Assembly (NCBI GenBank): GCA_964372275.1
Contig: CAYJRR010000030.1
Span: 1 to 38,961 of the forward strand
Reading direction: 5' to 3'
Length of the DNA: 38,961 bases
From: an uncultured bacterium
GTDB taxonomy: Bacteria; CAYJRR01
Shown here: positions 1,474-21,390 of the stretch, in pieces
Layout of the letters: each line of letters starts with the position of its first letter
How positions within the stretch are numbered: position 1 is the stretch's first letter
Position numbers and translations under genes: made by a program
The notes under the pieces: generated by a model
Databases searched by the model: none
Told to the model about the DNA's origin: nothing
Seen by the model: only the letters and a program-made list of their open reading frames with translations

Positions 1474-2394
1474 GTGCTTCAACTCCAGGTCGCACTCTTC
1501 TTGCTGTTCGCCTATCTGCTCTTGGCCGTTGGGGTCTTCCTCTTCATTCGCCTGCTCTTCCCCGAGGAGGAGGCGGCCGGAGCGAAGAAGCGTCTCGGCG
1601 TCGGCGGCGTCCGGACCGTTACCCCCTCCCTGGTGATGCGGATCACGCGGCCGCTGGCGGTGATGCTCACGCCGCTCACCCAGAACATCAAGGCGGAGAA
1701 GTACCGGGCGAAGGTGCGGCGCGGCTTCGTCAGCGCCGGGATGACCGACGAGATGACCCCCGACGAGTTCTTCGGGTGGAAGATCGTGATGGGGACCTTC
1801 CTGTTCCTCTTCGTCGCCAACACCGTCGGCGGCATCTGGGACCTTCCCTGGTACGTCCACATCGGCGTCTACCTGGTCGGCTTCTTCTATCCCGACATCT
1901 GGCTCAAGGGGATGATCGGCCGGCGGCAGAAGAAGATCCTCCGCGCGCTCCCCTACGTGATGGACCTGCTCACGCTCTCGGTGGAGGCGGGGCTCGACTT
2001 CGTCTCCGGGATCGCCAAGGTGACGGAGAAGGCCAAACCCGGACCGCTGGTGGAGGAGCTCGCCTTCTACCTGCACGAGACGCAGATCGGCACCACGCGC
2101 TCGCAGGCGCTGCGGAACATGGCCTACCGCATCAACTTGCCGCAGATCAGCTCGTTCGCCGCGCTCCTGGTCCAGGCCGACCAGCTCGGGGCGTCGATCG
2201 GCCCGGTGCTCCGCGCGCAGTCCGACCTGCTGCGCGCCCAGCGCTTCCAGGCGGCGGAGAAGGCGGGTGCCGCCGCGACGCAGAAGCTCCTCTTTCCGCT
2301 CGTGCTCTGCATCATGCCCGCGGTCTTCATCGTGATCTTCGGGCCGATCCTGCTGAACTTCATCTACGGCACCGGCGTCATCGGGGGCGGCTAG
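1474..2394 (+). CDS. tadC: T2SSF-domain inner-membrane platform protein, TadC/TadB-like
   Basis: A 306-aa product with TM helices and a GspF/T2SSF-type domain (ALPYVMDLLTLSVEAGLDFVSGIAKV... LPQISSFAALLVQADQLGASIGPVLRAQSDLLR). GTG start preceded by GGAAAGG. It is a second platform paralog, located ~18 kb away from tadB at 20488. Confidence 0.75.
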   Translation: MLQLQVALFLLFAYLLLAVGVFLFIRLLFPEEEAAGAKKRLGVGGVRTVTPSLVMRITRPLAVMLTPLTQNIKAEKYRAKVRRGFVSAGMTDEMTPDEFFGWKIVMGTFLFLFVANTVGGIWDLPWYVHIGVYLVGFFYPDIWLKGMIGRRQKKILRALPYVMDLLTLSVEAGLDFVSGIAKVTEKAKPGPLVEELAFYLHETQIGTTRSQALRNMAYRINLPQISSFAALLVQADQLGASIGPVLRAQSDLLRAQRFQAAEKAGAAATQKLLFPLVLCIMPAVFIVIFGPILLNFIYGTGVIGGG

Positions 2395-2404
2395 GAGGAA
2401 TCCC

Positions 2405-2749
2405 GTGACCTTCCGTAACCGGACGCGCGGAATGGTGCTCTCCGATCGGACGCGGGTGGCCGACCGGCTCGTGAGCCGCATGGTCGGCCTGCTGGCCACC
2501 GACCGGCTCGAAGACGGCGAGGGCCTGTGGATCGAGCCGTGCACGTCGATCCACACCTGGTTCATGCGGTTCCCGATCGACGCCCTGTTCCTCGACGACG
2601 GGGGCCGCGTGGTGAAGCTGGTGCGCACGATGAAGCCCTGGAGACTGACCTCGATCGCCCGCCGGGCCCGTGGTGTCCTCGAGCTCCCCGCCGGGACGCT
2701 CGACCGGACCGGGACGTCGGTCGGAGACGAGGTCGAGCGGACGGCATGA
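2405..2749 (+). CDS. DUF192 (COG1430) family protein
   Basis: A 114-aa product carrying LWIEPCTSIHTWFMRFPIDALFLD...GTL, characteristic of DUF192. GGAGGA lies upstream of the GTG start. The 3' end overlaps the next gene in an ATGA junction. Confidence 0.65.
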   Translation: MTFRNRTRGMVLSDRTRVADRLVSRMVGLLATDRLEDGEGLWIEPCTSIHTWFMRFPIDALFLDDGGRVVKLVRTMKPWRLTSIARRARGVLELPAGTLDRTGTSVGDEVERTA

Positions 2750-4461
2750 CGGCCAAGCTCGTCATCGTCGAAGGTCCGCAGCGCGGCCGGGAGTTCCCCT
2801 TGCGGGAGGGGGAGAACGTCGTCGGCCGCACGTCGGAGACGCCGATCGAGCTGGCGTCGAACAAGGTTTCGCGACGCCACGCCACGATCCACCTGACGAA
2901 CGGGCGGGTCGAGGTGGAGGACCTGGGCTCGGCGAACGGGACGTTCGTCAACGGCAAACAGGTCACGCGCGCGCCGGTGCCGGCCGGGTCGAAGATCCTG
3001 GTCGGCGACTTCGTCTTGCAAGTGGTCAACGGCGGCGGCGCGGCGCGCCCGGCCGGCGCGCCGGCGCGACCGGTGACCGGGGGAGTTCCGGCGGGTCCCC
3101 GCACCGGGCCGGTCGCCGCCACGCGGCCGGTCCAGGGGAACGCGGTCAAGAAGACCGGCAAGGCGGTGATGGTCGTCAACCCGCAGCAACGGCCGGGCGC
3201 GACGAAGCGGCCGGCACGGGCGGCGGCGCCGGTCAGCGTGCCGAGCGAAGGGGCGAAGAAGGCGGCGGACCGGATCGTCGCCCGCATCGGCGGACTTCCC
3301 TGGCGATCGCAAGTGGTGGTGATCGTCGTCGCGCTCTCGGCCGCGCTGATGCTGGCGGTGACCTACGTCATCAGCAAGGCGAAGAGCGACTACCAGAAGC
3401 TGGCGACCCGGCACGCCGTCACGATCGCCAAACAGATCGCCGCGCAGAACGCCATCTACCTGGCGACCAAGGAGAACCTCCAGCTCAACGTCGACGTGGA
3501 GGAGACCGAGCTGGGGGTGAAGGACGCGCAGATCGTCGGCGCCGACGGTCAGATCAAGTACCCCAAGACCCTCCTCGGGAACCTGCAAGAGGCCCCGATT
3601 GTCCAAGAGGCGTTGGCGTTGAAGGACTTCTCGGTGGTGATGAAGCCGAGCGCGGACAACCCGGAGTGGGTCGACATCGCCGTGCCGGTGTTGTTCTACA
3701 ACGCCAACTCGGCGAAGTTCGACCAGGTGGGGGCGGTACTGATCACCTACGCGCCGGTCGAGGTGACGAAGAGGGCCACCCAGGCGGGTTGGCTCTACGG
3801 CGTGTCGGCCTTCCTGCTGCTCGTCGCCGGCGGCGCCGGAGCCTACTTGCTGATGCGGTCGACCGAATCGGCGGTGCAACGGGTCCAGGAGGACACCGAG
3901 CTTCTCGCCCGCGGCGACCTGCAGCAGATTGCGAGCCCGATCAAGATGCGCGAGATCGAGGCGCTGGTCCATTCGATCAATCGCCTGTTCCAGAAAGCGG
4001 GGGCGATGCGGTCCACGGCCGACCCGGCTTCCGCCGCGCACCCGGTCGCGTCCGCGCCGATGCTGGCGCTTCCGGCGCAGGTCGGACCCGTGGGGAACGC
4101 CGGCTCCGACGCGATCGTGCGCGCGCTGGTCGAGGCGATCGAGGACGCGGCGATCGTCGTCGACGCCGACAGCAAGGTGGTCGAGGTGAACAAGGCCGCC
4201 GAGCGGATGTTCGGCCTCGTTCCCGCAAAGGTGCGGGGGAAGCACCTGCTCGAGGCGATCACCGAGAAGCAGCTGCTGAACGACGTGCTCGATCTCCTGA
4301 ACGAGATCGCCGCGGCGCCGGAAGGGGTGGTCACGCGCGCGCTGGAGGTTCCGGGGCCCGACGGGCCGAAGCCGGGACACGTCTCGGCGGCCGGCGTCCG
4401 GCAGGGTAACGAGCTGGTCGGATCGGCGATCGTCATCTCCGCACGGGGTGACGCTTCGTGA
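2746..4461 (+). CDS. Membrane sensor protein with the domain order FHA, TM, periplasmic region, TM, HAMP-like, PAS
   Basis: N-terminal FHA domain (LVIVEGPQRGREFPL...VVGR...NKVSRRHATIHL...VEDLGSANGTFVNG). A Pro/Ala linker follows. Two TM segments (VVVIVVALSAALMLAVTYVI; WLYGVSAFLLLVAGGAGAYLLM). Then a HAMP-like helix and a C-terminal PAS-like fold (IVRALVEAIEDAAIVVDADSKVVEVNKAAERMFG...). The real start is the ATG at 2746, in frame with the track ORF 2527..4461. Confidence 0.75.
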   Translation: MTAKLVIVEGPQRGREFPLREGENVVGRTSETPIELASNKVSRRHATIHLTNGRVEVEDLGSANGTFVNGKQVTRAPVPAGSKILVGDFVLQVVNGGGAARPAGAPARPVTGGVPAGPRTGPVAATRPVQGNAVKKTGKAVMVVNPQQRPGATKRPARAAAPVSVPSEGAKKAADRIVARIGGLPWRSQVVVIVVALSAALMLAVTYVISKAKSDYQKLATRHAVTIAKQIAAQNAIYLATKENLQLNVDVEETELGVKDAQIVGADGQIKYPKTLLGNLQEAPIVQEALALKDFSVVMKPSADNPEWVDIAVPVLFYNANSAKFDQVGAVLITYAPVEVTKRATQAGWLYGVSAFLLLVAGGAGAYLLMRSTESAVQRVQEDTELLARGDLQQIASPIKMREIEALVHSINRLFQKAGAMRSTADPASAAHPVASAPMLALPAQVGPVGNAGSDAIVRALVEAIEDAAIVVDADSKVVEVNKAAERMFGLVPAKVRGKHLLEAITEKQLLNDVLDLLNEIAAAPEGVVTRALEVPGPDGPKPGHVSAAGVRQGNELVGSAIVISARGDAS

Positions 4462-5525
4462 CGGGGAAGGCACGGTCATCCCTTCGGGGCGCCGGGAAGG
4501 ATCGAATGGGCGGTATGCCGCGCGCCACCGATCCGCGCAAGGCCTCGGCCTCGGCGGGTCCGATGCGGCTCCGCATCCTCGACGGACCGGAAGCGGGGAC
4601 GGAGTACGCCGTCACCGGGGAGCGGGTGAGCCTCGGACGCGGGGACGGGAACGACATCGTGCTGGTCGACGAGAACGCGTCGCGCAACCACGCCGAGCTG
4701 GTGATGGAGCGCGACGGCCGGTACCGCGTGCGCGACCTCGGGAGCCGTCACGGCGTGGTGGTCAACAAGCGCCGGGTGCAGGAGGCGGCGCTCGCGTCCG
4801 GCGATCGCCTGCGCATCGGCAGCACGACGGTCGAGGTCCGGATCGACGGCGCACCTGCGGCGGGCAGTCCCCTGGTACGGTGGCTCGCGGTCGGCGGCGT
4901 GGTGGTGGTGGCCGCCGTCCTCTTCCTGGCGATGCGGGGCGGGAAGGGTCCGGTGGTGGTGGGAAATTCCGGGGCGCGTACGGTCGGCAGCGCCGCTCCG
5001 GCCCCGTCCGTCGCGGCGGCGGCGCCGGTCGTTCCGCGCGATCCCAACAGCATCTCCCTGGGGAGTCTCTTGAGTCCCGCCGCCTCCGCGCCGGCCAAAG
5101 GGGTGGAGGTCGGCCGCAACGCGAACACCCGTCCGGTCGGGGTCCCTCCTCCGACGGCGGCGACGATCAAGTCGAGCCCGGCGGACGTCGCGGCGGCGGC
5201 GGCGCTGATCGCCGAAGCCGACCGGAGCCTGGGAAGCGGACGCCTGTCGGACGCCCGCGAACAGATCGCCCGGGCGATCCGGATCGACCCCTCGTGCGAG
5301 CGTTGCGTCGCCAAGCTCGCCGGCGTCGAGGCGACGATCAAGAAGCAGATCGAGGACGCCTTCGCCGCCGGCAGGAAGTACCTCGACACGGCCCGCTACC
5401 AGGACGCCATCAACCAGTTCCAGAAGGTGAAACTGTTGGATCCCGATCCGGCCTCGATCAATAATGGGAACGCGAGCCGGCTGATCCAGGAGGCGCAGAC
5501 GCTGAAGGCGCAGAGCGGCCGATAG
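4458..5525 (+). CDS. FHA-domain membrane protein with a C-terminal TPR-like region
   Basis: FHA domain (LRILDGPEAGTEYAVTGERVSLGRGDGNDIVLVDENASRNHAELVMERDGRYRVRDLGSRHGVVVN). One TM helix (WLAVGGVVVVAAVLFLAM). A helical TPR-like tail follows. The GTG at 4458 overlaps the upstream stop (GTGA). An alternative ATG start is at 4506. Confidence 0.7.
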   Translation: MTGKARSSLRGAGKDRMGGMPRATDPRKASASAGPMRLRILDGPEAGTEYAVTGERVSLGRGDGNDIVLVDENASRNHAELVMERDGRYRVRDLGSRHGVVVNKRRVQEAALASGDRLRIGSTTVEVRIDGAPAAGSPLVRWLAVGGVVVVAAVLFLAMRGGKGPVVVGNSGARTVGSAAPAPSVAAAAPVVPRDPNSISLGSLLSPAASAPAKGVEVGRNANTRPVGVPPPTAATIKSSPADVAAAAALIAEADRSLGSGRLSDAREQIARAIRIDPSCERCVAKLAGVEATIKKQIEDAFAAGRKYLDTARYQDAINQFQKVKLLDPDPASINNGNASRLIQEAQTLKAQSGR

Positions 5526-5541
5526 GAAAGAGCCCTCCGGC

Positions 5542-7752
5542 ATGATCGAGTTGATCGTCAAGAAAGATGATCGCGAGATCAATCGCTACTTCCTTCCGCA
5601 GGGAATCACCACCCTCGGACGAGCGGAGGACAACGGAATCATCCTCGACGATTCCTGCGTCTCGCGCCGGCACGCCCAGATCAAGGTCGACGGCGCCAAG
5701 GTCCTGATCGAGGACATGAACTCCGGCAACGGCGTCTACCGGGGGGACGCCCGCATCGAGCAGCACGAGCTCGCCGACGGTGACGAGATCGTGATCGAGC
5801 CGTTCACGCTGCTCGTTCGCATGGACGCCGAGAAGGGGAGGGTCGCCGATTCGACGCGGCCCGTTCCGAGCGCCAATCGGCCGAGAAGCGAGCGCCTCGA
5901 TCCGCCGCCGCGCACCGCCCGGGAGCCGGGCGGGTCGGCCGCCGGCGGACCCCGCCTCGAGGTGCTTCGCGGGGCCGGGGGTCCGTACCTCCTGTCCGGC
6001 GACAGCATCGTTCTCGGTCGCTCGGACGAGGCGAAGATCACGCTCAAGGATCCGTCCTCCTCCCGCAAACACGCGATGATCGAGCGTTCGAACCGGGGCT
6101 GGACGGTCCGCGATCTGGGCAGCGCGAACGGGACCTACCTGAACGGTTCGGCGATCGGCGAGTCGCCGCTCGCCAACGGGGACGTCATCCTCATCGGGAA
6201 CACCGAGCTCCGCTTCATCGATCCGGAGGCGGTCGCCGACGACGATCCGGCGCCGCTTCCGTCCACCCGATCCGTCGCTGTCGACCGCGGGCGCGCCGCG
6301 GTCCTGAAGGACGAACCGGTCTGGGCGGACAGCGTCCGGGAGGCGGAGGCGGACGGTCTCACCGGGGCGGTCCACACCTCGGAGTTGTTCGAAGCGGGGG
6401 GCACCGCGGCCGGCGGCGATACGGAGCTGGGGGCGGCGGGGGCCGACGACGCGGGTGGGGTGGAGGACGAGGGCTATGCGGCGGACGGCGATCGCTCCAC
6501 CGCCGACTTCGGCTCGATCGACGCCACGGGGGCGGGCGACGCGTACGGGATGGAGCTGGAAGGGGTGGCGTTCCCCGGCGACGAGGTGCCGGAGTCGATC
6601 GTCGGGCGCTACATCTACTCGCTCAAGACCAATCGCCGTACCCAGTTGATCACCGGGTTGCTCGGATTCACCTTCGTGATGATCCTGATCGCGGGCAGCC
6701 GGGGGGGCGGTGGCGCGGGGGGAGCGGCCGTCGGGCCGCAAGTGCTCGACAAGCAGCAGAAGCTCACGCTGACCACCATGGAGGCCGCCCTGCGTCAGGC
6801 GCTGGGGGCGATCGATCCGTCCAAGCCGACGAAGGACTACGCGACGGCGTTCGAGTACTTCGGCCGGGTGCGGACGTTCGGCAGCACCGAGGAGATGAAA
6901 GAGGTCCGCGATGCGCAGGAGCTGGTGCGCACCGCGAACGAGAACATCTACACCCTGCACGAGGCGTTGCTCCTGGCCCGCCTGCGCGACGTCACGATGC
7001 GGGGCGCGGAACGGGATCGCGCCACGCAGGAGCGCTTCGATCGCTCGATGCGGGACGGGAAGGCCAACCTCGATGCGGCTCGCCGGCGGCGTTCGGTGGC
7101 CAGCTACGACGCGGCGCTACGCGCGTTCAACGACGTCCTCCAGATCGACCCCGAGAACGCCGAGATCAAGCAGCTGGTGGTCGCCGCCCGCTCCGAGCGC
7201 GGGAAGATCGCCGGTGAGATGTCGAAGGTCGCGAAGGCGGCGCTCGAGCGGAAGCAGAGGGCCACCTTCGACCAGGCGCAAGGCGCGATGGGCAAGCGAA
7301 CGGCGCGCGGCTACCTGGAAGCGATCCGTCTCTTCGAGCGGATGCTGCAGCAGGATCCGGGATACATGAGCGATCTGACCGGCCGGGCGTCGGCGGAGAT
7401 CGCCGCGGCGAAGAAGAAGCTGCGCGACTCGGCACGGCCGATCAAGGACAACGCGAAATCGGCGATCGCCCGGCAGGACTGGCTGACGGCGCGGGCCAAG
7501 CTGCGGCAGGCGCAGGCGACCGATCCGTACGACCTCTCCATTCCGGCGCAGTTGGAGGAGGTCCAGCAGGAGTGTCTCAAGAACGCGCGGCAACAGATCT
7601 CCGAGGCGAAGGCCTACAAGAACGTCGGGAACCCGGTCGAGGCGCGCAAATCGCTGGAGTTGGGCCTCCGCTACGCCGACGAAGAGAAGTACAAGGAGAA
7701 CCAGCAGATCCGCGAGCTCCTCAAGACGATCAGCCGCGAGAACGAGCGGTAG
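5542..7752 (+). CDS. Tandem-FHA membrane protein with a C-terminal TPR-like domain
   Basis: Two FHA domains (YFLPQGITTLGRAEDNGIILDDSCVSRRHAQIKVDG...IEDMNSGNGVY; YLLSGDSIVLGRSDEAKITLKDPSSSRKHAMIERSNRGWTVRDLGSANGTYLNG). An acidic low-complexity linker follows. One TM helix (LITGLLGFTFVMILIAG). A ~350-aa helical repeat region follows, paralogous to the tail of the previous gene. Confidence 0.8.
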   Translation: MIELIVKKDDREINRYFLPQGITTLGRAEDNGIILDDSCVSRRHAQIKVDGAKVLIEDMNSGNGVYRGDARIEQHELADGDEIVIEPFTLLVRMDAEKGRVADSTRPVPSANRPRSERLDPPPRTAREPGGSAAGGPRLEVLRGAGGPYLLSGDSIVLGRSDEAKITLKDPSSSRKHAMIERSNRGWTVRDLGSANGTYLNGSAIGESPLANGDVILIGNTELRFIDPEAVADDDPAPLPSTRSVAVDRGRAAVLKDEPVWADSVREAEADGLTGAVHTSELFEAGGTAAGGDTELGAAGADDAGGVEDEGYAADGDRSTADFGSIDATGAGDAYGMELEGVAFPGDEVPESIVGRYIYSLKTNRRTQLITGLLGFTFVMILIAGSRGGGGAGGAAVGPQVLDKQQKLTLTTMEAALRQALGAIDPSKPTKDYATAFEYFGRVRTFGSTEEMKEVRDAQELVRTANENIYTLHEALLLARLRDVTMRGAERDRATQERFDRSMRDGKANLDAARRRRSVASYDAALRAFNDVLQIDPENAEIKQLVVAARSERGKIAGEMSKVAKAALERKQRATFDQAQGAMGKRTARGYLEAIRLFERMLQQDPGYMSDLTGRASAEIAAAKKKLRDSARPIKDNAKSAIARQDWLTARAKLRQAQATDPYDLSIPAQLEEVQQECLKNARQQISEAKAYKNVGNPVEARKSLELGLRYADEEKYKENQQIRELLKTISRENER

Positions 7753-13307: not shown

Positions 13308-13313
13308 CCCGAT

Positions 13314-14910: not shown

Positions 14911-15263
14911 TGATCGAACGTCGACCGCGTCGGACGAACGAGAAGGGCCAGTCGGCCGTCGAGGTCCTCTTCGGGATCCCGGTGCTGCTTACGATCTTCG
15001 TGCTCGGCTTCCAGCTCTTCGAGATCACCTGGAACGCGCAGTACGCGCACGTGCGAAGCCGCCAGGAGATGATGAACTTCGCGGCGCATCGGCCGTGCTT
15101 CGCCAACAACGACGGCGGAACGAACTCGCTCGGGAACGGCACCATCTCCCCGTCCCAGGCGCGGATCGACGCCACCCTCAACCCCGGAGCGCCGGGCTCC
15201 CCGGGACTGGTCCGCAGGCGCCAGATCCGGCACCGGGCCTCGGTCTACTGCAACCAACCGTGA
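14910..15263 (+). CDS. TadE-like minor pilin
   Basis: MIERRPRRTNEKGQSAVEVLFGIPVLLTIFVLGFQLFEI matches the TadE N-terminal domain. The start overlaps the upstream stop (TGATG). Confidence 0.65.
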   Translation: MIERRPRRTNEKGQSAVEVLFGIPVLLTIFVLGFQLFEITWNAQYAHVRSRQEMMNFAAHRPCFANNDGGTNSLGNGTISPSQARIDATLNPGAPGSPGLVRRRQIRHRASVYCNQP

Positions 15264-15265
15264 CG

Positions 15266-15957: not shown

Positions 15958-16785
15958 GTGAAGAACCGTCGTGCCCTGATCTATTCGGTGCTCTGCGCGT
16001 TCTTCGCGATGCTGTTCCAGTGCTCCTACATCAGCAAGAAAGAACGCCTTCTCCAGGGCGACTACGAACCGATCAAGGTGATGGTCGCCAAGAAGAACAT
16101 CCCCAAAGACTTCAAGCTCGACGAGACGATGGTCGAGTTCGTCGACATCCCCAAGAAGTACGTCCAGCCGAAAGCGCTCAAGGACCTCAACGAGATCCTG
16201 GGGCAGATCTCCGGCTCCACCATCTTCCAGGGGGAGCAGATCATCGCCACCAAGCTGCTCTCGATCGAGGACGCGGGGCTGGCGTTCAAGGTGCCGAAGA
16301 ACTTCCGCGCCTTCACCATCGCCGTCGACGATGTTTCGGGCGTCGGCGGGCACGTCCGGCCGGGGAACTACATCGACCTGATGGGGATCTTCGACTTCGG
16401 CGATGAGCGGAAGTCCGACCAGCGCGCGGTGACGCTCCTCCAGAACGTCTACGTCCTCGCCGCCGGCGGCGACCTCGGACAGGCGGTCCCGTTCAACGCC
16501 TCGAGCGATGACGTGGAACGGATCAACGAGATCGTGCGTCAGAAGGACGAGAAGAACTACCGTGGCTACCGGAACGTGACGCTCATGCTGACCGCCGAGG
16601 AGGCCCAGAAGGTGATGTTGGCCCAGGAGGTCGGTTCCTTGAGCCTCACGCTGCGCTCCCTGTGGGAGGGGAACACGCAGCTCCCTCTCGACAAGGTGTC
16701 GGTCAACAGCGCGGTCGGCATCCCCGAGAAGGTCTACCGCCGGCCGCGGGCATCGTATCGGGAGATTCGCGCAGGGAGCTACTAG
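15958..16785 (+). CDS. cpaB: Flp pilus assembly protein CpaB/RcpC
   Basis: A 275-aa product. N-terminal TM anchor, then SAF-like and RcpC-like regions (KVPKNFRAFTIAVDDVSGVGGHVRPGNYIDLMG... VTLLQNVYVLAAGGD). Confidence 0.85.
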   Translation: MKNRRALIYSVLCAFFAMLFQCSYISKKERLLQGDYEPIKVMVAKKNIPKDFKLDETMVEFVDIPKKYVQPKALKDLNEILGQISGSTIFQGEQIIATKLLSIEDAGLAFKVPKNFRAFTIAVDDVSGVGGHVRPGNYIDLMGIFDFGDERKSDQRAVTLLQNVYVLAAGGDLGQAVPFNASSDDVERINEIVRQKDEKNYRGYRNVTLMLTAEEAQKVMLAQEVGSLSLTLRSLWEGNTQLPLDKVSVNSAVGIPEKVYRRPRASYREIRAGSY

Positions 16786-16804: not shown

Positions 16805-18256
16805 TTGGAGCGGGCGCGTCGGGCGGTTCGGGAGATCCTCGCGGCGGCCGCGACCGCGGCGCTGGTGATCGTGGTCGCGCCCGCGGCCGCCCGAGCGGCC
16901 GAAGAGGTGGTGATCGTCGTCGGGAAGCAGGTGACGGTGAACATCCCGTTCCCGATCGGCAGCGGTGCCAACTCCAACCCCGAAGTGGTGCAGGCGGTGG
17001 TCGATCCCCAGAGCCGACGGATCATCTTCTTCGGCCGTCGGGTCGGTTCCGCCAGCTACGTGGTGTTCGACGCTCGCAGCCGCACCAACCGCAAGGAGTA
17101 CGACATCCGCGTCGTCGGAGAGGACCTGGCGCGGATCCGCGACAACCTGCAGCGGCAGATCGGCGACATCGAAGGGGTCGAGGTCAAGCTGCAAGGGGAC
17201 CAGGTGATCGTCGAGGGGGACGTGGCCCTGGAGTCGGAGCTGCAGCGGATCGAGAAGCTGACGCTCAATCGTCCGAACATCCAGAACCTGGTGCGCCTCT
17301 CGCCGTTGGCGATCAAGGCGACCGCCCGCACCATCCAGCAGGCGATCGACCGCCCGGAGGTCACCGCCCGGCCGCTGAAGGACAAGATCCTCCTGGAAGG
17401 GGACGTCTACTCCGACGAGCAGAAGACGCGGGCGGAGATGATCGCCACCACGCTCTTCTCCAACATCGTCAACGTCATCGAGGTGAAGCAGGTGCCGCGG
17501 CCGCCGAGCCGCGCCAAGACGATCGTGCTCAACACCCACTTCCTGGAGCTGTCCAAGGAGATGCTCGACACCTGGAGCATCAACTGGGGGACGGTGGCGC
17601 TCTCCGAGAGCGGGCTGCAGGCCTTCTTCCAGATGGACCTGGTCAACGGCGAGTTCGTCGGCGACTTCAACACCACCATCTCGGGAACGATCTCGGCCTT
17701 CCTCCCCAAGCTCGACCGCGCCAAGCCGGAAGGGGTGGTGCGGACGCTGGCCAATCCGGTGATCACCACCAAGGACGGCGAGGCGGCGTCGATCTTCACC
17801 GGGGCCACCGTCCCGTTCATCGTCGGCGTCGCGGCGAACGGAACGCCGATCGTCGATTTCAAGGACGTCGGGATCTCCCTCAACGCCACCCCCTTCGCGC
17901 AAGGGGACAGCGTCGACCTGAAGATGACCGTCGAGGCCAGCGACGTCGGGAACGTCGACCTGGCGAGCGACCAGACCGGCATCCTGAAGTCGACCTTCTC
18001 CTGCTCCCAGTTCGTCCGCGCCGGGGAAAGCGTGGCGATCGGCGGACTGTTCCGCGTCGGCGATAACGTCGTCTACAACAAGCCGGTCAACGCGCGGCAG
18101 TTCGAGGACTCGATCTTCCGGCTGTTCCTCTCGCGCTCCTACCAGAAGCGCAAGGGGCAGTTCATCGTCTTCATCACGCCGACCGTCCACGACGAGAGCA
18201 GCAGCGCCAACCGCGAGATGAAGGACGTCTTCAACCTGCAGGAAGTCGGCCAGTAG
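16805..18256 (+). CDS. cpaC: Tad secretin CpaC/RcpA
   Basis: Signal peptide, then N-terminal secretin-associated domains, then a C-terminal secretin domain (VRTLANPVITTKDGEAASIFTGATVPF...GILKSTFSCSQFVRAGESVAIGGLFR). Confidence 0.85.
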   Translation: MERARRAVREILAAAATAALVIVVAPAAARAAEEVVIVVGKQVTVNIPFPIGSGANSNPEVVQAVVDPQSRRIIFFGRRVGSASYVVFDARSRTNRKEYDIRVVGEDLARIRDNLQRQIGDIEGVEVKLQGDQVIVEGDVALESELQRIEKLTLNRPNIQNLVRLSPLAIKATARTIQQAIDRPEVTARPLKDKILLEGDVYSDEQKTRAEMIATTLFSNIVNVIEVKQVPRPPSRAKTIVLNTHFLELSKEMLDTWSINWGTVALSESGLQAFFQMDLVNGEFVGDFNTTISGTISAFLPKLDRAKPEGVVRTLANPVITTKDGEAASIFTGATVPFIVGVAANGTPIVDFKDVGISLNATPFAQGDSVDLKMTVEASDVGNVDLASDQTGILKSTFSCSQFVRAGESVAIGGLFRVGDNVVYNKPVNARQFEDSIFRLFLSRSYQKRKGQFIVFITPTVHDESSSANREMKDVFNLQEVGQ

Positions 18257-18258
18257 CG

Positions 18259-20445
18259 ATGCCGGTCAATCCGAACTGCTTCGTCATCTCGGTCATCGGC
18301 GCGCGGGACGGGGTCGGCAAGACTGTTTTCTCCTGCAACTCGGCGCTCTCCTTCCAGCGCGAGACGCGTCGCCGCGTCTGCCTGATCGACCTCGACCCGG
18401 TCTACTGCGGCGACCTGAACAACCTGATCGGCGCGCCGATCACCAAGTCGTTCGCCGACCTCGCGCCGGTGGTCGAACGCGCGCAGGCCTCGCTGCTCAA
18501 GGGGTTCATCACCCCGCACGCCTCGGGGATCACCCTCTTCCCGCTCTACAAGGAGGCCAAGGAGCTGGCGGCAATCCCGCCGGCGGCGGTGGGGCGGACG
18601 CTCGAACTGTTGACCGAGATCAACGACTTCCTGATCGTCGACGTCGGGACGGTGGTCAACGACGTCACGCTGAAGGCGCTGGAACGATCGACTGCGGTCT
18701 TCATCGTCACCACCCCCGACGTGATGGTCCTGGAGCAATCGCGGAAGCTGGTCGAACAGCTCCAGAACCTGCACTTCCCCCGCGAGATGCTGAAGGTGAT
18801 CCTGAACAAGTTCGAAGGGGAGAAGGGGCCGATCTCGCTCGAGGTGATTGCCCAGAAGCTGCAGCGCCAGCTGCTCACCGCCATCATGCGCGACGACGCG
18901 ACGGTCAGCCAATCGGTGAACATGTCGCAGCCGTTCGTGCTCGCCGCGCCGCGGGCGCCGATCACCAAGAAATACGACGACCTGGCCCGCAACCTCCTCG
19001 AGCGCGGGATCCTGGCCAACCTGCGGTCGGCGGCGAAGCCGGCGGGGGTCGCGCTCGAGCCGTCGACGGGAGGCGCCGCGCTCGTCAAGGGGCCGGCGGT
19101 CTTCAAGGCGACCGCCTCGCCGACGGCGGGCAAGTTCGGAGCCAAGAAACAGATCCAGCTCGATCCTCGCACGCAGCTCAAGCAGCGGATCCACAAGCGG
19201 CTGATCGAGGTGCTCGACCTGAAGCGCCTCGACACCGAGCTCAAGGGGAAGGAGAACAAGGAGGAGCTGCTTCGGGAGCGGACGGAGCAGGCGATCATCG
19301 CCATTCTCGACCAGGACGCGCCCGACGTCCGCGATCGCGAGGAGCGCAAGGCGATCGTCCGCGAGGTGCTCAACGAGGCGCTCGGCCTGGGGTGCCTGGA
19401 GGACCTCCTCGCCGATCCGACGGTGAGCGAGATCATGGTGAACCACCCCCACCAGATCTACATCGAGAAGTCGGGGAAGCTGACCCTTTCCGAGACGACC
19501 TTCACCGACGAGGGGCAGCTCCGCGCCGTGATCGAGCGGATCGTGGCGCCGATCGGGCGGCGCATCGACGAGAAGAGCCCCTACGTCGACGCCCGGCTGC
19601 GCGACGGCAGTCGCGTCCACGCCATCATCCCGCCGCTGGCGCTGAACGGGTCGTGCCTCACCATCCGGAAGTTCTCCAAGGACCCCTTCACCTACAAGGA
19701 CCTGGTGAAGTTCGGCTCCTTCACCGACGAGATCGCCGACTTCCTTCGCGCCTGCGTCGAGGCGCGCCTCAACATCATCATCTCGGGCGGCACCGGCTCG
19801 GGGAAGACGACGCTCCTGAACGTCATGTCCGGATTCATCCCGGCCGACGAGCGGATCATCACCGTGGAGGACTCCGCCGAGCTGCAGCTCCCGCAGGACC
19901 ACGTCGTTCGCCTCGAGACCCGGCCGAAGAACATCGAAGGGGAAGGGGAGGTCACGATCCGCGACCTGGTGCGCAACACGCTCCGGATGCGGCCCGACCG
20001 CATCGTGGTGGGGGAGTGCCGCGCCGGCGAGGCGCTCGACATGTTGCAGGCGATGAACACCGGCCATGACGGCTCACTGACCACCGTCCACTCCAACTCG
20101 CCACGGGACTGCATCGCCCGGCTGGAGACGCTGGTGATGTTCGCGGGTCTCGACCTGCCGAGCCGCGCCATCAAGGAGCAGATCGCCGGCGCCATCAACA
20201 TGATCGTGCAGCAGACGCGGCTGTCCGACGGCTCGCGCAAGATCACCTACATCACCGAGGTCACGGGGATGGAAGGACAGGTGATCACCATGCAGGACAT
20301 CTTCACCTTCAAGCAGACGGGGGTCGACGACCGGGGGAAGGTGGTCGGGAAGTTCATCTCCACCGGTTTCATCCCGAGGTTCGTGGAAGGGCTGCAGGCG
20401 CGCGGGATCAAGCTCCCCAAGGGGATCTTCCGTGGCGGGGACTGA
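18259..20445 (+). CDS. cpaF: Fusion protein: an N-terminal ParA/MinD-like CpaE/TadZ ATPase-fold domain joined to the CpaF/TadA secretion ATPase
   Basis: Residues ~1-270 carry a deviant Walker A (IGARDGVGKT), a Walker A' (VCLIDLDPVYCGD) and a Walker B (FLIVDVGT), as in CpaE/MinD. There is no receiver domain. A Pro/Ala linker follows. A complete CpaF/T2SSE ATPase follows (GGTGSGKTTLLN Walker A, the DRIVVGECRGAEA-like region, His box TGHDGSLTTVHSN). The whole protein is one uninterrupted 728-aa frame. Confidence 0.85.
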   Translation: MPVNPNCFVISVIGARDGVGKTVFSCNSALSFQRETRRRVCLIDLDPVYCGDLNNLIGAPITKSFADLAPVVERAQASLLKGFITPHASGITLFPLYKEAKELAAIPPAAVGRTLELLTEINDFLIVDVGTVVNDVTLKALERSTAVFIVTTPDVMVLEQSRKLVEQLQNLHFPREMLKVILNKFEGEKGPISLEVIAQKLQRQLLTAIMRDDATVSQSVNMSQPFVLAAPRAPITKKYDDLARNLLERGILANLRSAAKPAGVALEPSTGGAALVKGPAVFKATASPTAGKFGAKKQIQLDPRTQLKQRIHKRLIEVLDLKRLDTELKGKENKEELLRERTEQAIIAILDQDAPDVRDREERKAIVREVLNEALGLGCLEDLLADPTVSEIMVNHPHQIYIEKSGKLTLSETTFTDEGQLRAVIERIVAPIGRRIDEKSPYVDARLRDGSRVHAIIPPLALNGSCLTIRKFSKDPFTYKDLVKFGSFTDEIADFLRACVEARLNIIISGGTGSGKTTLLNVMSGFIPADERIITVEDSAELQLPQDHVVRLETRPKNIEGEGEVTIRDLVRNTLRMRPDRIVVGECRAGEALDMLQAMNTGHDGSLTTVHSNSPRDCIARLETLVMFAGLDLPSRAIKEQIAGAINMIVQQTRLSDGSRKITYITEVTGMEGQVITMQDIFTFKQTGVDDRGKVVGKFISTGFIPRFVEGLQARGIKLPKGIFRGGD

Positions 20446-20487
20446 CGCGAGCACGGCGCGGGCCGGGGGCCGGACGGAGGAGGTCCG

Positions 20488-21390
20488 GTGATCCTTCGCA
20501 TCGTCTCCAGCGCGATCCTGGGGGTCGCGGCGTTCCTGTTCGTCGTCGGCTCCTACGAATGGTTCGCGCGGCGCCTGCGCGAGGCCACCACCGAATACGT
20601 CGCCTGGATGGTGACGATGTTCGACCGGATGTTCCTCACCGTCACCGCGCGGCAGTGCGTGATCCTGATCGCCGCCAGCACCGTCGGGACCGGGCTGATC
20701 ATGTTCTGGCTCACCGGGGCGTTGAGCGGAGCGACCTGGAAGTGGTTCATCCGGCTCCTCATCATCGGCGTGGCGATGAAGGGACCGTGGATCTTCCCCA
20801 TGGGCTGGTCGCTGCCGCGGAGGATCGTCAACTGGATGTGGCGGCGGCGGGTGAACAAGTTCGACGAGCAGATGCTCGACGGGCTGACCTTCCTCGCGAA
20901 CTCGATGAAGTCGGGGCTGTCGCTGCTGCAGGCGATCGACATGATCGTGCAGGAGCTCCCGAACCCGCTCTCGCAGGAGTGGGCGCTGGTATTGAGTCAG
21001 CAGAAGCTCGGGGTGCGGATCGACGAGGCCCTCGACAACCTGGAGAAGCGGATCGGCTCCGAGGACATCCAGATCGTCTGCACCAGCATCGGCATCCTCC
21101 GCGAGTCGGGCGGCAACCTGGCCGAGGTGTTCGACACCATCGCCTACACCATGCGCGAGCGGCGGAAGGTGGAGGGGAAGATCTCGGCGATGACGGCCCA
21201 GGGGGTGATGCAGGGGATCATCATCATGGCGATGCCGTTCGTCCTGGCGGCCGTCCTCTACGCCATGGATCCGGTCCTGATCGCCCGGTTGTGGCAGACG
21301 GTGCTCGGATGGGTCCTCCTGATCATGATGATGACCCTCCAGTTCGTGGGCGGGTACATCATCAAGAAGGTCGTGACCATCGAGGTCTAG
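20488..21390 (+). CDS. tadB: T2SSF-domain platform protein TadB
   Basis: A 300-aa polytopic membrane protein with the T2SSF domain (LDGLTFLANSMKSGLSLLQAIDMIV...). GTG start preceded by GGAGGAGG. Confidence 0.85.
   Translation: MILRIVSSAILGVAAFLFVVGSYEWFARRLREATTEYVAWMVTMFDRMFLTVTARQCVILIAASTVGTGLIMFWLTGALSGATWKWFIRLLIIGVAMKGPWIFPMGWSLPRRIVNWMWRRRVNKFDEQMLDGLTFLANSMKSGLSLLQAIDMIVQELPNPLSQEWALVLSQQKLGVRIDEALDNLEKRIGSEDIQIVCTSIGILRESGGNLAEVFDTIAYTMRERRKVEGKISAMTAQGVMQGIIIMAMPFVLAAVLYAMDPVLIARLWQTVLGWVLLIMMMTLQFVGGYIIKKVVTIEV

What the first reader, a model, noticed from the sequence alone, without database searches (positions are those of the whole stretch)
1474..21390. Tad/Flp pilus machine physically linked to a membrane FHA/Ser-Thr-kinase signalling module; platform gene tadC is displaced next to the FHA genes
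The window carries a full Tad system. It contains five flp genes, tadV, TadG/TadE pseudopilins, cpaB, cpaC, a cpaE-cpaF fusion and tadB.

The second platform gene (TadC-like, 1474..2394) is not next to tadB. It sits ~18 kb away, in an operon-like array with a DUF192 gene and three membrane-spanning FHA-domain proteins. These include a tandem-FHA protein and an FHA-HAMP-PAS sensor. A Hanks kinase gene converges on this array.

FHA domains are phosphothreonine readers, so this layout predicts Thr-phosphorylation control of a Tad apparatus. The closest analogy is the Fha/PpkA control of type VI secretion. From memory and unverified, the contact-dependent prey-killing Tad-like 'Kil' system of Myxococcus xanthus is also split into clusters with extra non-Tad accessory genes.

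Given the myxobacterial signatures elsewhere in the window, this could be a Kil-like predation or contact apparatus rather than an adhesion pilus.
Basis: partly seen in the sequence, partly recalled or inferred. Interest (0 to 1): 0.75.

Follow-up and report, generated by a model that had tools for sequence, protein, structure and literature searches.

The report
Kil-type Tad pilus with phosphothreonine module
This is a complete Tad pilus machine of the same subclass as the prey-killing "Kil" system of Myxococcus and the prey-invasion Tad system of Bdellovibrio; its platform gene tadC always travels with phosphothreonine-reader (FHA) genes, and in this lineage a Ser/Thr kinase sits in the locus too, which names a candidate for the unknown switch that turns such machines on.

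Summary
The locus runs tadC, DUF192, three membrane FHA genes, a convergent Hanks kinase, two flp, tadV, three more flp, tadG, tadE, cpaB, cpaC, a tadZ-tadA fusion and tadB.

The linkage is not chance. In 69 of 70 related loci, an FHA gene starts within 700 bp of the tadC stop. These loci span Myxococcota, Bdellovibrionota, Bradymonadales, Acidobacteriota, Schekmanbacteria and KSB1. Across 198 such FHA domains the phosphothreonine-binding residues are almost invariant.

tadC is therefore not a stray paralogue. The tadC-FHA block is an old unit that sits next to tadB in some lineages and apart from it in others. Myxococcaceae loci that match the published kil cluster II are in the same tadC family. 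Published work places Bdellovibrio tadC apart from its tad locus and describes a TadZ-TadA fusion there.

FHA proteins in Kil and Bdellovibrio Tad loci are already published, so the kind is known. Not found in the searchable literature are an orthologous kinase conserved beside flp in seven related loci from about six genomes, the DUF192 gene, and a WalK-like sensor with an FHA domain and no kinase core.

Phospho-control is well supported by inference. A role in predation is untested.

The parts
1474..2394 (+). TadC/KilH-type inner-membrane platform protein (306 aa, 3 predicted membrane segments)
   Evidence: Pfam T2SSF, E 7.9e-15. There are 1815 homologues, the best at 70-78% identity over the full length. 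The 80 best genome loci include Myxococcaceae loci that match the published kil cluster II, at 41-47% identity.
2405..2749 (+). DUF192 protein (114 aa, no membrane segment predicted)
   Evidence: Pfam PF02643, E 2.5e-19. A DUF192 gene lies between tadC and the first FHA gene in most non-Myxococcaceae relatives, including Bacteriovoracaceae L036.
2746..4461 (+). FHA sensor protein: cytoplasmic FHA, disordered linker, membrane segment, periplasmic PAS/PDC-like domain, membrane segment, HAMP-like helix, cytoplasmic PAS. It has no kinase core.
   Evidence: Pfam FHA and PAS. Membrane segments at 191-209 and 352-370. In the AlphaFold2 model the periplasmic domain has pLDDT 85-95. The best PDB match is the WalK sensor kinase model 9a5d_A, E 1.7e-14 over 404 columns. 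The GR/SxxH/NG residues are present.
4458..5525 (+). FHA, one membrane segment, then Ala/Pro-rich linker and TPR (C-terminal part predicted periplasmic)
   Evidence: Pfam FHA, E 6.8e-18, and TPR_2. Membrane segment at 139-157. The Asn of the NG loop is His here, whereas relatives keep Asn.
5542..7752 (+). Tandem-FHA protein: two FHA domains, acidic linker, weak membrane segment, ~350-aa TPR/helical C-terminal region
   Evidence: Pfam finds two FHA stretches, E 9.1e-37, plus TPR. Membrane segment at 367-385 with score 1.86. Both FHA domains have canonical phosphothreonine-binding residues.
7774..9684 (-). Hanks-type Ser/Thr kinase: kinase domain 1-290, ~300-aa Ser/Thr/Pro/Arg-rich linker, C-terminal membrane tail anchor
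   Evidence: Pfam Pkinase, E 2.4e-41. Motifs K45, HRDVSPQN, DFG and SPE are present. Membrane segment at 612-630. Orthologues (47-94% identity) lie beside flp in L001/L092, L085, L088, L089/L100, L090 and L097; L016 holds a further match (54%) cut at the locus end. Unrelated kinases score 24-39%.
9973..10170 (+). Flp pilin 1
   Evidence: The translation carries G/QTATEY followed by a hydrophobic helix. Flp hits of 64-82% identity occur in L085, L089, L092 and L097.
10197..10376 (+). Flp pilin 2
   Evidence: The translation carries G/QAAVEY followed by a hydrophobic helix.
10396..10884 (+). TadV/CpaA prepilin peptidase
   Evidence: Pfam Peptidase_A24, E 6.4e-15. It holds the same position after the flp genes in L001, L085, L088 and L090; in L089 a Peptidase_A24 gene is listed there by the precomputed Pfam table only.
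10860..12623 (-). Membrane phosphodiesterase / alkaline-phosphatase-family gene. Probably an insertion and not part of the machine.
   Evidence: Pfam Phosphodiest, E 1.3e-19. No homologue was found in any related locus. L001 has a fatty-acid hydroxylase gene at this position.
12807..13013 (+). Flp pilin 3
   Evidence: G/QTATEY motif.
13095..13307 (+). Flp pilin 4
   Evidence: G/QTVTEY motif.
13314..13535 (-). Flp pilin 5 (opposite strand)
   Evidence: G/QASTEY motif.
13816..14910 (+). TadG-like minor pilin
   Evidence: Pfam Tad (PF13400), E 7.6e-10.
15260..15826 (+). TadE-like pseudopilin (start approximate)
   Evidence: Pfam TadE, E 6.2e-6.
15958..16785 (+). CpaB/RcpC (KilB-like)
   Evidence: Pfam RcpC, E 1.8e-25, and SAF.
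16805..18256 (+). CpaC/RcpA secretin (KilC-like)
   Evidence: Pfam Secretin, T2SS-T3SS_pil_N and a weak BON hit.
18259..20445 (+). TadZ-TadA (CpaE-CpaF) fusion ATPase with no N-terminal receiver-like domain
   Evidence: Pfam ParA/CbiA at residues 9-246 and T2SSE at 376-652. More than 100 full-length fusion homologues have at least 53% identity. The same fusion is published as TadZA in Bdellovibrio.
20488..21390 (+). TadB/KilG-type platform protein
   Evidence: Pfam T2SSF, E 1e-18. It is followed by a PP-loop housekeeping gene at 21450..22331.

Best explanation
The region encodes one functional system: a Tad (type IVc) pilus machine of the FHA-associated subclass, which also contains the Myxococcus xanthus Kil system and the Bdellovibrio TadZA system.

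**The machine.**
- Structural core: Flp pilins, TadV, TadE/TadG, CpaB, the secretin, the TadZ-TadA motor and TadB.
- The second platform protein, TadC, is co-expressed with DUF192 and three inner-membrane proteins. Each of these has its FHA domain(s) facing the cytoplasm and its C-terminal domain facing the periplasm.

**Proposed mechanism (inferred).**
1. The locus-encoded, membrane-anchored Hanks kinase phosphorylates threonines. Candidate targets are its own Ser/Thr-rich linker and/or linkers of the FHA proteins, the motor or the platform.
2. The FHA domains dock on these phosphothreonines. This nucleates or licenses assembly of the TadB/TadC platform and motor at a defined site.
3. The first FHA protein has a WalK-like sensor module (periplasmic PAS/PDC, HAMP, cytoplasmic PAS) but no kinase core. 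It could couple an envelope or contact signal to this assembly step.

**Shown:** gene content, conserved linkage, conserved phosphothreonine-binding residues, and the sensor-like fold.

**Inferred:** who phosphorylates whom, the signal, and whether the pilus serves prey contact.
For: **1. tadC and the FHA genes are linked.**
- An FHA gene starts within 700 bp of the tadC stop in 69 of 70 related loci with enough downstream sequence.
- These loci come from at least six phylum-level groups.
- In the window the genes overlap or sit 10-16 bp apart.

**2. The block is physically tied to Tad genes in every layout seen.**
- In Acidobacteriota (L046, L047, L048, L052, L058) and Schekmanbacteria (L040) it directly follows cpaB-cpaC-tadZA-tadB.
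- In Myxococcaceae it follows cpaB-tadB, as in kil cluster II.
- The window's exact global layout recurs in L001/L092 and in L100+L089, which lie on one contig with TadC 57% and TadZA 63% identical.

**3. The FHA domains look like working phosphothreonine readers.** Of 198 FHA domains downstream of tadC orthologues, Arg is kept in 195, Ser in 197, His in 195 and Asn in 192.

**4. The kinase belongs to the system.**
- Orthologues at 47-94% identity share an HRD[IV][ST]PxN motif and lie next to, and divergent from, the flp genes in L001/L092, L085, L088, L089, L090 and L097.
- This holds even where the locus shows no tadC next to tadB and no tadC-FHA block within the stretch fetched (L088, L090).
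- A second, unrelated kinase sits directly upstream of cpaB-tadB-tadC-FHA-FHA in Haliangium and Kofleriaceae MAGs.

**5. The first FHA protein has a sensor fold.** The AlphaFold2 model and the Foldseek match to WalK show it.

**6. Published biology agrees.**
- The FHA/TPR protein KilD is recruited to prey contact sites before, and independently of, the Tad machine. The authors proposed an FHA signalling cascade.
- Bdellovibrio has the TadZA fusion, a separate tadC and FHA/TPR/PAS neighbours.
Against: - No PP2C phosphatase is present in the window, unlike the type VI secretion PpkA/PppA/Fha1 module.
- No kinase was seen within 10 kb of the tadC-FHA block in Acidobacteriota or Bacteriovoracaceae loci, and most Myxococcaceae loci also lack one. 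The published M. xanthus kil gene table lists none either. The kinase partner is therefore lineage-specific or encoded elsewhere.
- Myxococcota carry many Ser/Thr kinases, so weak kinase hits near some loci may be chance.
- One window FHA domain (4458..5525) has His in place of the conserved Asn.
- All FHA domains also match the Pfam model of the type III secretion YscD cytoplasmic domain, which acts structurally without phosphopeptides.
- No phosphorylation, interaction or phenotype data exist for this locus.
- The source organism is an unnamed MAG, so its lifestyle is unknown.
Confidence: 0.65

Rival explanations
1. The FHA membrane proteins are purely structural parts of the Tad basal body. 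They would form an inner-membrane ring or alignment complex like SctD/YscD/PrgH of type III secretion (cytoplasmic FHA-like domain, one membrane segment, periplasmic domain). Phosphorylation would play no role, and the kinase would be an unrelated neighbour.
For: - All four FHA domains also match Pfam Yop-YscD_cpl.
- All three proteins have the SctD-like topology of cytoplasmic FHA, membrane segment and periplasmic domain.
- The published Kil gene table gives MXAN_4649 a PrgH-like annotation.
- The tadC-FHA linkage holds in many genomes where no kinase is nearby.
- Tad systems lack the PilMNOP alignment complex of type IVa pili (established knowledge), so there is a structural role to fill.
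Against: - The phosphothreonine-binding Arg, Ser, His and Asn residues are kept in 192-197 of 198 domains across distant phyla. This is hard to explain without ligand binding, because YscD/PrgH-type domains have lost these residues (established knowledge, not tested here).
- An orthologous kinase is retained next to flp in several genomes.
- The two readings are not exclusive. A scaffold whose docking depends on phosphothreonine fits both.
Confidence: 0.2
2. The system is an ordinary adhesion or biofilm Flp pilus. The FHA/kinase module only tunes expression or timing (for example surface sensing), with no link to prey contact or killing.
For: - The same tadC-FHA block with a TadZA motor occurs in Acidobacteriota, Schekmanbacteria and KSB1. 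These groups are not known predators (established knowledge).
- FHA-fused CpaF motors are reported mostly in Betaproteobacteria.
- The window has a TadV and a TadG-like gene, as classic Tad loci do. The Kil authors list TadG among the Tad proteins missing from Kil.
Against: - The two experimentally studied members of this tadC family act in prey killing (Kil) and prey invasion (Bdellovibrio).
- The window's closest named relatives are Myxococcota MAGs, a phylum rich in predators.
- None of this tests function in this organism.
Confidence: 0.3
3. The adjacency of the tadC/FHA genes to the Tad core is a chance rearrangement. The FHA operon would belong to another conserved pathway, and tadC would be a decaying paralogue.
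For: Only the 18-kb separation from tadB and the intervening unrelated phosphodiesterase-family gene.
Against: - tadC is intact, with GC3 0.95 and full-length homologues at 70-78% identity.
- The core locus has only one other platform gene, and related TadZA loci likewise lack a tadC next to tadB.
- The tadC-FHA linkage holds in 69 of 70 loci.
Confidence: 0.02

Closest known systems
Bdellovibrio bacteriovorus HD100 Tad system (tad locus 1, Bd0110-Bd0119, plus the separate tadC locus Bd0470; TadZA motor). Sources: bioRxiv 10.64898/2026.07.08.737194 and eLife 2021 Supplementary file 2.
   Same: - The gene order cpaB-secretin-TadZ/TadA fusion-tadB is the same.
- The fusion has no room for the N-terminal receiver-like domain, because its ParA domain starts at residue 9.
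- tadC is encoded away from tadB.
- Neighbours of the tad genes carry FHA, TPR and PAS domains.
- Bacteriovoracaceae loci L036 and L041 show tadC followed by three FHA genes; Pfam confirms the DUF192 gene and the FHA domains in L036.
   Different: - The window keeps both blocks in one 20-kb locus.
- It has its own TadV peptidase, whereas Bdellovibrio uses PilD.
- It carries a Hanks kinase. The preprint mentions only histidine kinases near the tad genes.
- Bdellovibrio sequences themselves were not compared directly, only Bacteriovoracaceae and Bdellovibrionota MAGs.
Myxococcus xanthus Kil system (kil clusters I and II, MXAN_3102-3108 and MXAN_4648-4661). Sources: Seef et al. 2021 eLife (PMC8460266) and Herrou et al. 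2025 Nat Commun (PMC12075869).
   Same: - Both are Tad-derived machines.
- The platform gene is followed by an FHA gene and then an FHA-TPR gene (KilH, MXAN_4649, MXAN_4648).
- Myxococcaceae loci with that published gene order are 41-47% identical to the window's TadC and fall among its 80 best genome matches.
- The Kil authors noted an over-representation of FHA proteins and proposed a cascade like that of type VI secretion.
   Different: - KilF is an FHA-ATPase fusion, whereas here the motor is fused to TadZ.
- Kil is split into two distant clusters with cpaB-tadB-tadC together. Here tadC is the gene that is apart.
- The published Kil gene table lists no DUF192 and no kinase gene.
- The window has five flp genes in the locus, while kilP lies elsewhere.
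- Kil-specific Tip minor-pilin complexes were not looked for.
Type VI secretion threonine-phosphorylation pathway of Pseudomonas aeruginosa (PpkA kinase, PppA phosphatase, Fha1)
   Same: A membrane Hanks kinase and an FHA protein are encoded inside the locus of an envelope-spanning machine whose assembly is triggered post-translationally. The Kil authors drew this analogy.
   Different: - There is no PP2C phosphatase in the window.
- The FHA proteins here are membrane-spanning and there are three of them.
- There are no type VI secretion genes.
- This is an analogy of logic, not homology of the system.
Class III CpaF motors with an N-terminal FHA domain (Nat Commun 2025, PMC12019362)
   Same: This is another documented case of FHA domains attached to Tad machinery. 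KSB1 locus L080 in my set also has an FHA-TadA arrangement.
   Different: There the FHA domain is fused to the motor. Here it is carried by separate membrane proteins co-transcribed with tadC, and the motor is fused to TadZ.

Membership tests
Tad / type IVc pilus system | Flp-type pilins with a G/XXXXEY processing site and a dedicated A24 prepilin peptidase | tested here: met
   Five flp ORFs carry G/Q-x-x-x-E-Y. Peptidase_A24, E 6.4e-15.
Tad / type IVc pilus system | Core machine: CpaB/RcpC, secretin, TadA/CpaF ATPase, and two T2SSF platform proteins (TadB and TadC) | tested here: met
   Pfam finds RcpC, Secretin, T2SSE and two T2SSF proteins.
FHA-associated Tad subclass (Kil / Bdellovibrio TadZA clade) | The tadC orthologue is immediately followed by FHA-domain genes | tested here: met
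   True in the window and in 69 of 70 related loci.
FHA-associated Tad subclass (Kil / Bdellovibrio TadZA clade) | FHA-linked tadC genes form one clade, distinct from canonical TadC (for example Caulobacter CpaH or Aggregatibacter TadC) | not tested
   No canonical outgroup sequences were fetched. The only evidence is that 69 of the 70 related loci with enough downstream sequence (drawn from the 80 best of 575 genome matches plus look-ups) are FHA-linked.
Bdellovibrio-type TadZA system | TadZ (ParA/MinD-like) fused to TadA, without the N-terminal atypical receiver domain | tested here: met
   The ParA/CbiA domain spans residues 9-246 and T2SSE spans 376-652, leaving no room for a receiver domain. 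The feature is described.
Bdellovibrio-type TadZA system | tadC is encoded apart from tadB | tested here: met
   The two genes are 18.1 kb apart with 15 called genes between them. The feature is described.
Bdellovibrio-type TadZA system | No TadV in the tad loci (PilD is shared) | tested here: not met
   The window encodes a Peptidase_A24 gene at 10396..10884.
Myxococcus Kil system | ATPase KilF with an N-terminal FHA domain | tested here: not met
   The N-terminal domain of the motor is ParA/CbiA, not FHA.
Myxococcus Kil system | Core genes split into two distant clusters, with kilB-kilG-kilH together | tested here: not met
   All genes lie within 20 kb. tadC, not the ATPase or secretin, is the separated gene.
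Myxococcus Kil system | Contact-dependent prey killing, with FHA/TPR protein KilD clustering at prey contacts | not testable with these tools
   This needs a cultured organism and microscopy.
Myxococcus Kil system | KilL/M/N 'Tip' minor-pilin complexes | not tested
   TadG-like and TadE-like genes are present, but they were not compared with KilN.
Threonine-phosphorylation control module (PpkA/PppA/Fha1 type) | Hanks kinase with intact catalytic motifs encoded in the locus | tested here: met
   Pkinase, E 2.4e-41. Lys45, HRD, DFG and SPE motifs are present.
Threonine-phosphorylation control module (PpkA/PppA/Fha1 type) | FHA domain with phosphothreonine-binding residues (GR, SxxH, NG) | tested here: met
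   Three of the four window FHA domains are fully canonical. The residues are kept in 192-197 of 198 related domains.
Threonine-phosphorylation control module (PpkA/PppA/Fha1 type) | Partner PP2C phosphatase in the locus | tested here: not met
   No PP2C family appeared among the Pfam hits for the called genes of the window.
Threonine-phosphorylation control module (PpkA/PppA/Fha1 type) | Demonstrated phosphorylation-dependent assembly | not testable with these tools
   This needs phosphoproteomics and genetics.

The most novel reading that the evidence does not exclude
A three-part phosphothreonine switch would be the shared assembly trigger of a whole Tad subclass that spans several phyla. 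The parts are a membrane-anchored Hanks kinase kept beside the flp genes, a WalK-like sensor that carries an FHA domain instead of a histidine-kinase core, and two FHA-membrane-TPR scaffolds co-transcribed with tadC and DUF192. The subclass includes Kil, Bdellovibrio TadZA, and relatives in Acidobacteriota, Schekmanbacteria and KSB1. On this reading the kinase found here is the missing upstream component that the Kil authors postulated. The subclass would also not be restricted to predatory 'delta-proteobacteria' as first proposed.
Probability: 0.3. Interest if true: 0.7.

Novelty: new member of a known kind. Interest (0 to 1): 0.48.

Why it matters
How Kil-type Tad machines are switched on at the exact point of prey contact is an open question. 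The published work shows that an FHA/TPR protein arrives first, and it proposes an unidentified signalling cascade.

This locus and its relatives supply three concrete leads:
- A candidate kinase family, conserved next to flp.
- A candidate sensor, the FHA protein with a WalK-like input module.
- A conserved accessory gene, DUF192.

They also show that the tadC-FHA block is an evolutionary unit. That explains why tadC looks 'displaced' in Bdellovibrio and in this window. Mutating the invariant FHA Arg/Ser residues or the kinase in Bdellovibrio, Haliangium or Myxococcus would test the model directly.

The wider distribution in Acidobacteriota, Schekmanbacteria and KSB1 bears on whether this subclass is really a marker of predation.

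Tried and rejected
1. **Exact look-up of the window's TadC in the contig index found nothing.** The taxon could only be inferred from neighbours, which are Myxococcota MAGs. Many nearby MAGs are labelled 'uncultured Enterobacterales', which I treat as mislabelling.
2. **The metagenome scan seeded with the kinase returned only 8 loci.** Two were close relatives and both sit next to flp. The rest were generic kinases at 25-36% identity with no Tad genes. As a reciprocal test it is thin.
3. **The promoter and terminator scan gave no more sites than shuffled sequence.** It was not used.
4. **My first DUF192 HMM count undercounted.** The ORF extraction dropped overlapping frames. The tblastn hits, the Pfam tables, and the ~350-420 bp offset of the first FHA domain were used instead, so the DUF192 frequency (about 45 of 70 loci) is approximate.
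5. **The amidase gene near the locus was considered as a conserved effector.** Amidase_2 genes lie upstream of tadC in L001, L086 and L087. The window's amidase (22333..23322) has no detectable similarity to them, so no orthology is claimed.
6. **Weak kinase hits (24-39%) about 4 kb upstream of tadC in several loci were considered as evidence.** They were set aside as possible background, because Myxococcota encode many kinases. A flavokinase/FAD-synthetase gene (Pfam FAD_syn + Flavokinase) lies between in L100 and upstream of tadC in L003.
7. **Literature searches found no prior link of DUF192 or a Hanks kinase to Tad or Kil.** The library does not cover subscription journals.

Full report
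**1. What is in the window**

The window is 69% GC, so I chose reading frames by third-position GC and then ran Pfam. Region 1474..21390 contains, in order:

| Coordinates | Strand | Call |
|---|---|---|
| 1474..2394 | + | TadC-type T2SSF platform gene |
| 2405..2749 | + | DUF192 |
| 2746..4461 | + | FHA + PAS protein |
| 4458..5525 | + | FHA + TPR protein |
| 5542..7752 | + | tandem-FHA + TPR protein |
| 7774..9684 | - | convergent Hanks kinase |
| 9973..10170, 10197..10376 | + | two flp genes |
| 10396..10884 | + | tadV |
| 10860..12623 | - | phosphodiesterase-family membrane gene, no counterpart in relatives |
| 12807..13013, 13095..13307 | + | two flp genes |
| 13314..13535 | - | one flp gene |
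| 13816..14910 | + | TadG-like gene |
| ~15260..15826 | + | TadE-like gene |
| 15958..16785 | + | cpaB |
| 16805..18256 | + | secretin |
| 18259..20445 | + | ParA/TadZ domain fused to the TadA/CpaF ATPase |
| 20488..21390 | + | tadB |

- A PP-loop housekeeping gene follows at 21450..22331, so the locus ends at 21390.
- All five Flp proteins carry the G/QxxxEY processing motif.
- The tadC-to-FHA genes overlap by 4 bp or are 10-16 bp apart, as expected for one transcription unit.

The only changes are the order of the three FHA genes and the inserted phosphodiesterase-family gene.

**2. tadC is a real gene**

- It has GC3 of 0.95.
- The protein search found 1815 homologues. The best are 70-78% identical over the full length.

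**3. Is the tadC-FHA neighbourhood conserved?**

I aligned 40 homologues and scanned one genome per GTDB species.

- 575 relatives were found and the 80 best loci were fetched with 10-kb flanks.
- They come from Myxococcota MAGs (several mislabelled 'uncultured Enterobacterales'), Bdellovibrionota/Bacteriovoracaceae, Bradymonadales, Acidobacteriota/Terriglobia/Vicinamibacteria, Candidatus Schekmanbacteria and KSB1.
- They also include cultured Myxococcaceae: Corallococcus, Myxococcus, Pyxidicoccus and Archangium.

I then ran tblastn with all window proteins against these loci and an FHA profile search. In 69 of 70 loci with at least 1.5 kb downstream of tadC, an FHA gene starts within 700 bp of the tadC stop. 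DUF192 lies in between in roughly 45 of them.

Three layouts exist:
- **(A) Contiguous.** cpaB-cpaC-tadZA-tadB-tadC-(DUF192)-FHA-FHA-FHA, seen in Acidobacteriota (L046, L047, L048, L052, L058) and Schekmanbacteria (L040).
- **(B) Kil type.** cpaB-tadB-tadC-FHA-FHA/TPR, seen in Myxococcaceae.
- **(C) Split.** tadC-DUF192-FHA genes with no tadB upstream. This covers 44 of 78 loci with enough upstream sequence. It includes the window, its close relatives, Bacteriovoracaceae and Bradymonadales.

So tadC is not a displaced paralogue. The tadC-FHA block is an old unit, and it is the block that moves relative to tadB.

**4. Relation to published systems**

*Myxococcus Kil.*
- Supplementary file 1 of Seef et al. 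2021 lists kil cluster II as MXAN_4648 (FHA+TPR), MXAN_4649 (FHA), KilH, KilG, KilB and so on.
- Corallococcus exercitus locus L062 reads zinc-finger protein, small ORF, RcpC, T2SSF, T2SSF, FHA protein (970 aa), FHA+TPR protein (582 aa), then xseA. This matches cluster II.
- These inferred KilH orthologues (assigned by gene order) are 41-47% identical to the window's TadC.
- The same paper already noted the over-representation of FHA proteins. It reported that KilF is an FHA-ATPase fusion, and it proposed a contact-triggered FHA cascade by analogy with type VI secretion.

*Bdellovibrio.*
- Supplementary file 2 of the same paper places the Bdellovibrio KilH orthologue at Bd0470, far from Bd0110-Bd0119.
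- A 2026 preprint states that tadC is encoded separately 'unlike in other species'.
- It also states that the motor is a TadZ-TadA fusion lacking the receiver-like domain, and that neighbours carry TPR, FHA, PAS and histidine-kinase domains.

*The window.*
- Its motor has the ParA domain starting at residue 9, so it is the same kind of fusion.
- More than 100 full-length fusion homologues with at least 53% identity exist.
- FHA-fused CpaF motors are also described as 'class III'.

The window is therefore a new member of a known, FHA-associated Tad subclass. It is closest in architecture to the Bdellovibrio system.

**5. Are the FHA domains likely to read phosphothreonine?**

- In the window, three of the four FHA domains carry the canonical Gly-Arg, Ser-x-x-His and Asn-Gly residues. 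The FHA-TPR protein has His in place of Asn.
- Across 198 FHA domains found downstream of tadC orthologues, Arg is kept in 195, Ser in 197, His in 195 and Asn in 192.
- A profile search favours canonical domains, but the number of domains found per locus matches the gene count.
- Such conservation over several phyla argues for ligand binding rather than a purely structural FHA-like fold.

**6. Does the kinase belong to the system?**

The window's kinase has intact Lys45, HRD, DFG and SPE motifs, a ~300-residue Ser/Thr-rich linker and a C-terminal membrane tail anchor. Context look-ups gave the following.

| Locus | Identity of anchor protein | Arrangement | Kinase identity |
|---|---|---|---|
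| L001/L092 | TadC 72% | full window layout | 66% |
| L085 | TadC 73% | full window layout | 77% |
| L097 | n/a | kinase divergent from flp | 94% |
| L088 | TadZA 57% | kinase (minus strand) divergent from flp-tadV-...-cpaB-cpaC-tadZA-tadB; no tadC next to tadB | 47% |
| L089 | TadZA 63% | same as L088 | 57% |
| L090 | TadZA 55% | same as L088 | 53% |

- Unrelated kinases score 24-39%.
- L100 and L089 overlap on one contig. Together they reproduce the window's global order: tadC-DUF192-FHA x3, an unknown gene, UbiA, kinase (minus strand), then flp through to tadB.
- The flp-linked kinases share an HRD[IV][ST]PxN motif.
- Independently, Haliangium and Kofleriaceae MAGs have a different kinase (HRDLKPEN type) directly upstream of cpaB-tadB-tadC-FHA-FHA.

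The kinase therefore travels with the flp/core genes and the FHA readers travel with tadC. The window's lineage brings both together.

Against a universal link:
- No kinase was seen within 10 kb in Acidobacteriota or Bacteriovoracaceae loci, in L091 (unassigned phylum), or in most Myxococcaceae loci.
- No PP2C phosphatase is in the window.

**7. The first FHA protein is sensor-like**

- An AlphaFold2 model built on 20 homologues has mean pLDDT of 70.7, and 85-95 for residues ~210-350.
- The model shows an FHA domain, a disordered linker, a membrane helix, a helix-plus-sheet periplasmic domain, a second membrane helix, a HAMP-like coiled coil and a cytoplasmic PAS domain.
- Foldseek's best PDB match is the sensor histidine kinase WalK (9a5d_A, E 1.7e-14, 404 aligned columns). 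The remaining matches are PAS sensors.
- The protein ends after the PAS domain, so it has the input half of a sensor kinase, no kinase core, and an FHA domain at the other end.
- The other two FHA proteins have one membrane segment each and TPR-rich C-terminal parts that are predicted to be periplasmic.

**8. Proposed mechanism and its status**

*Shown:*
- A complete Tad gene set.
- A conserved tadC-DUF192-FHA unit.
- Invariant phosphothreonine-binding residues.
- A conserved locus kinase in this lineage.
- A sensor-like fold.

*Inferred:*
- The kinase creates phosphothreonine docking sites on itself or on linkers of machine components.
- The three membrane FHA proteins dock there and nucleate or license the TadB/TadC platform and the TadZA motor.
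- The sensor-like FHA protein ties this step to an envelope or contact signal.

This fits the published finding that the FHA/TPR protein KilD clusters at prey contacts before, and independently of, the Tad machine.

The main rival is a purely structural SctD/PrgH-like role for the FHA proteins. It is compatible with their topology and with the Yop-YscD Pfam hits, but it does not explain the conserved binding residues. Whether the pilus serves predation cannot be tested here. The same subclass in Acidobacteriota, Schekmanbacteria and KSB1 argues for caution.

**9. Novelty and score**

*Already published for Kil and Bdellovibrio:*
- The FHA-Tad association.
- The split gene arrangement.
- The separate tadC.
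- The TadZA fusion.

*Not found in the searchable literature:*
- The conserved Hanks kinase beside flp.
- The DUF192 partner.
- The finding that tadC and the FHA genes form one evolutionary unit in 69 of 70 loci with invariant binding residues.
- The WalK-like FHA sensor.
- The occurrence outside the former delta-proteobacteria. The first Kil paper described the distribution as restricted to Myxococcales, Bdellovibrionales and Bradymonadales.

I rate this a new member of a known kind with useful, testable additions, and give it an interest of 0.48.

Noticed in passing
window 25183..32248 (minus strand): This is a bacterial microcompartment locus. It holds a class II aldolase (25183..26103), two EutN/CcmL vertex proteins (26417..26821, 30976..31284), BMC shell proteins (26784..27491 with two BMC domains, 31625..32248) and an aldehyde dehydrogenase (29524..30969). 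Between them lie ORFs with no Pfam match (27434..28537, 28541..29335).
   Followed up: no
window 22333..23322 (+): This protein combines an N-acetylmuramoyl-L-alanine amidase domain (Amidase_2) with an L,D-transpeptidase (YkuD) catalytic domain, about 1 kb downstream of the Tad locus. Amidase_2 genes also lie a few kb upstream of tadC in L001, L086 and L087. They show no detectable similarity to this one, so a shared cell-wall effector role is only a thought.
   Followed up: partly
window 10860..12623 (-): A membrane-anchored type I phosphodiesterase / alkaline-phosphatase-family gene sits between tadV and the second flp group, and its 3' end overlaps tadV by 25 bp. No related locus has it. 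L001 has a fatty-acid hydroxylase gene at this spot, so the position looks like a variable insertion site.
   Followed up: partly
window 4458..5525, FHA domain residue ~His98: The otherwise invariant Asn of the FHA 'S-x-N-G' loop is His in this one protein (SRHG). Its counterparts in L001 and L085 keep Asn. This FHA domain may have altered or lost peptide binding.
   Followed up: partly
L001 5193..5627; L086 6028..6465; L087 4035..4457; L062 4789..5337: A small DUF2085 membrane-protein gene recurs just upstream of tadC. In Corallococcus it lies upstream of an ECF sigma factor and zinc-finger (zf-HC2) protein pair that precedes kilB. The window has no such gene next to tadC.
   Followed up: no
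L005, L006, L008, L016, L018, L021, L033, L100 (about 1.5-5 kb upstream of tadC, minus strand): A second Ser/Thr kinase recurs upstream of the tadC-FHA block in one Myxococcota clade. It has a PEGA domain in L100 and is 24-39% identical to the window's kinase. In L100 it is separated from tadC by a flavokinase/FAD-synthetase gene. It could be conserved background synteny or a second kinase input.
   Followed up: partly
L080 3534..5102 (KSB1 MAG): An FHA domain lies directly in front of a TadA ATPase. This looks like a KilF-like FHA-motor arrangement outside Myxococcota, in a locus that also has tadC followed by an FHA gene.
   Followed up: no
L091 13080..14819: In a TadZA locus of unassigned phylum (2.98-Mb contig), tadB is followed directly by an RHS/YD-repeat (DUF6531, TEN_YD-shell) protein, which is a toxin-like cargo gene. 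That locus has no kinase and no tadC within the stretch fetched.
   Followed up: no
window 37113..38885 (-) and 23442..25016 (-): Two large genes encode cell-surface-type domains: an FG-GAP repeat plus cadherin-like protein, and a PKD-domain protein. ORFs between 32338 and 37070 have high GC3 but no Pfam match.
   Followed up: no
record titles of L005, L007, L008, L010-L015, L017, L018, L026, L030: Many MAGs carrying this Myxococcota-type locus are titled 'uncultured Enterobacterales', 'Enterobacteriaceae' or 'Klebsiella sp.' in their records. Their gene content and GC suggest that these taxonomic labels are wrong.
   Followed up: no
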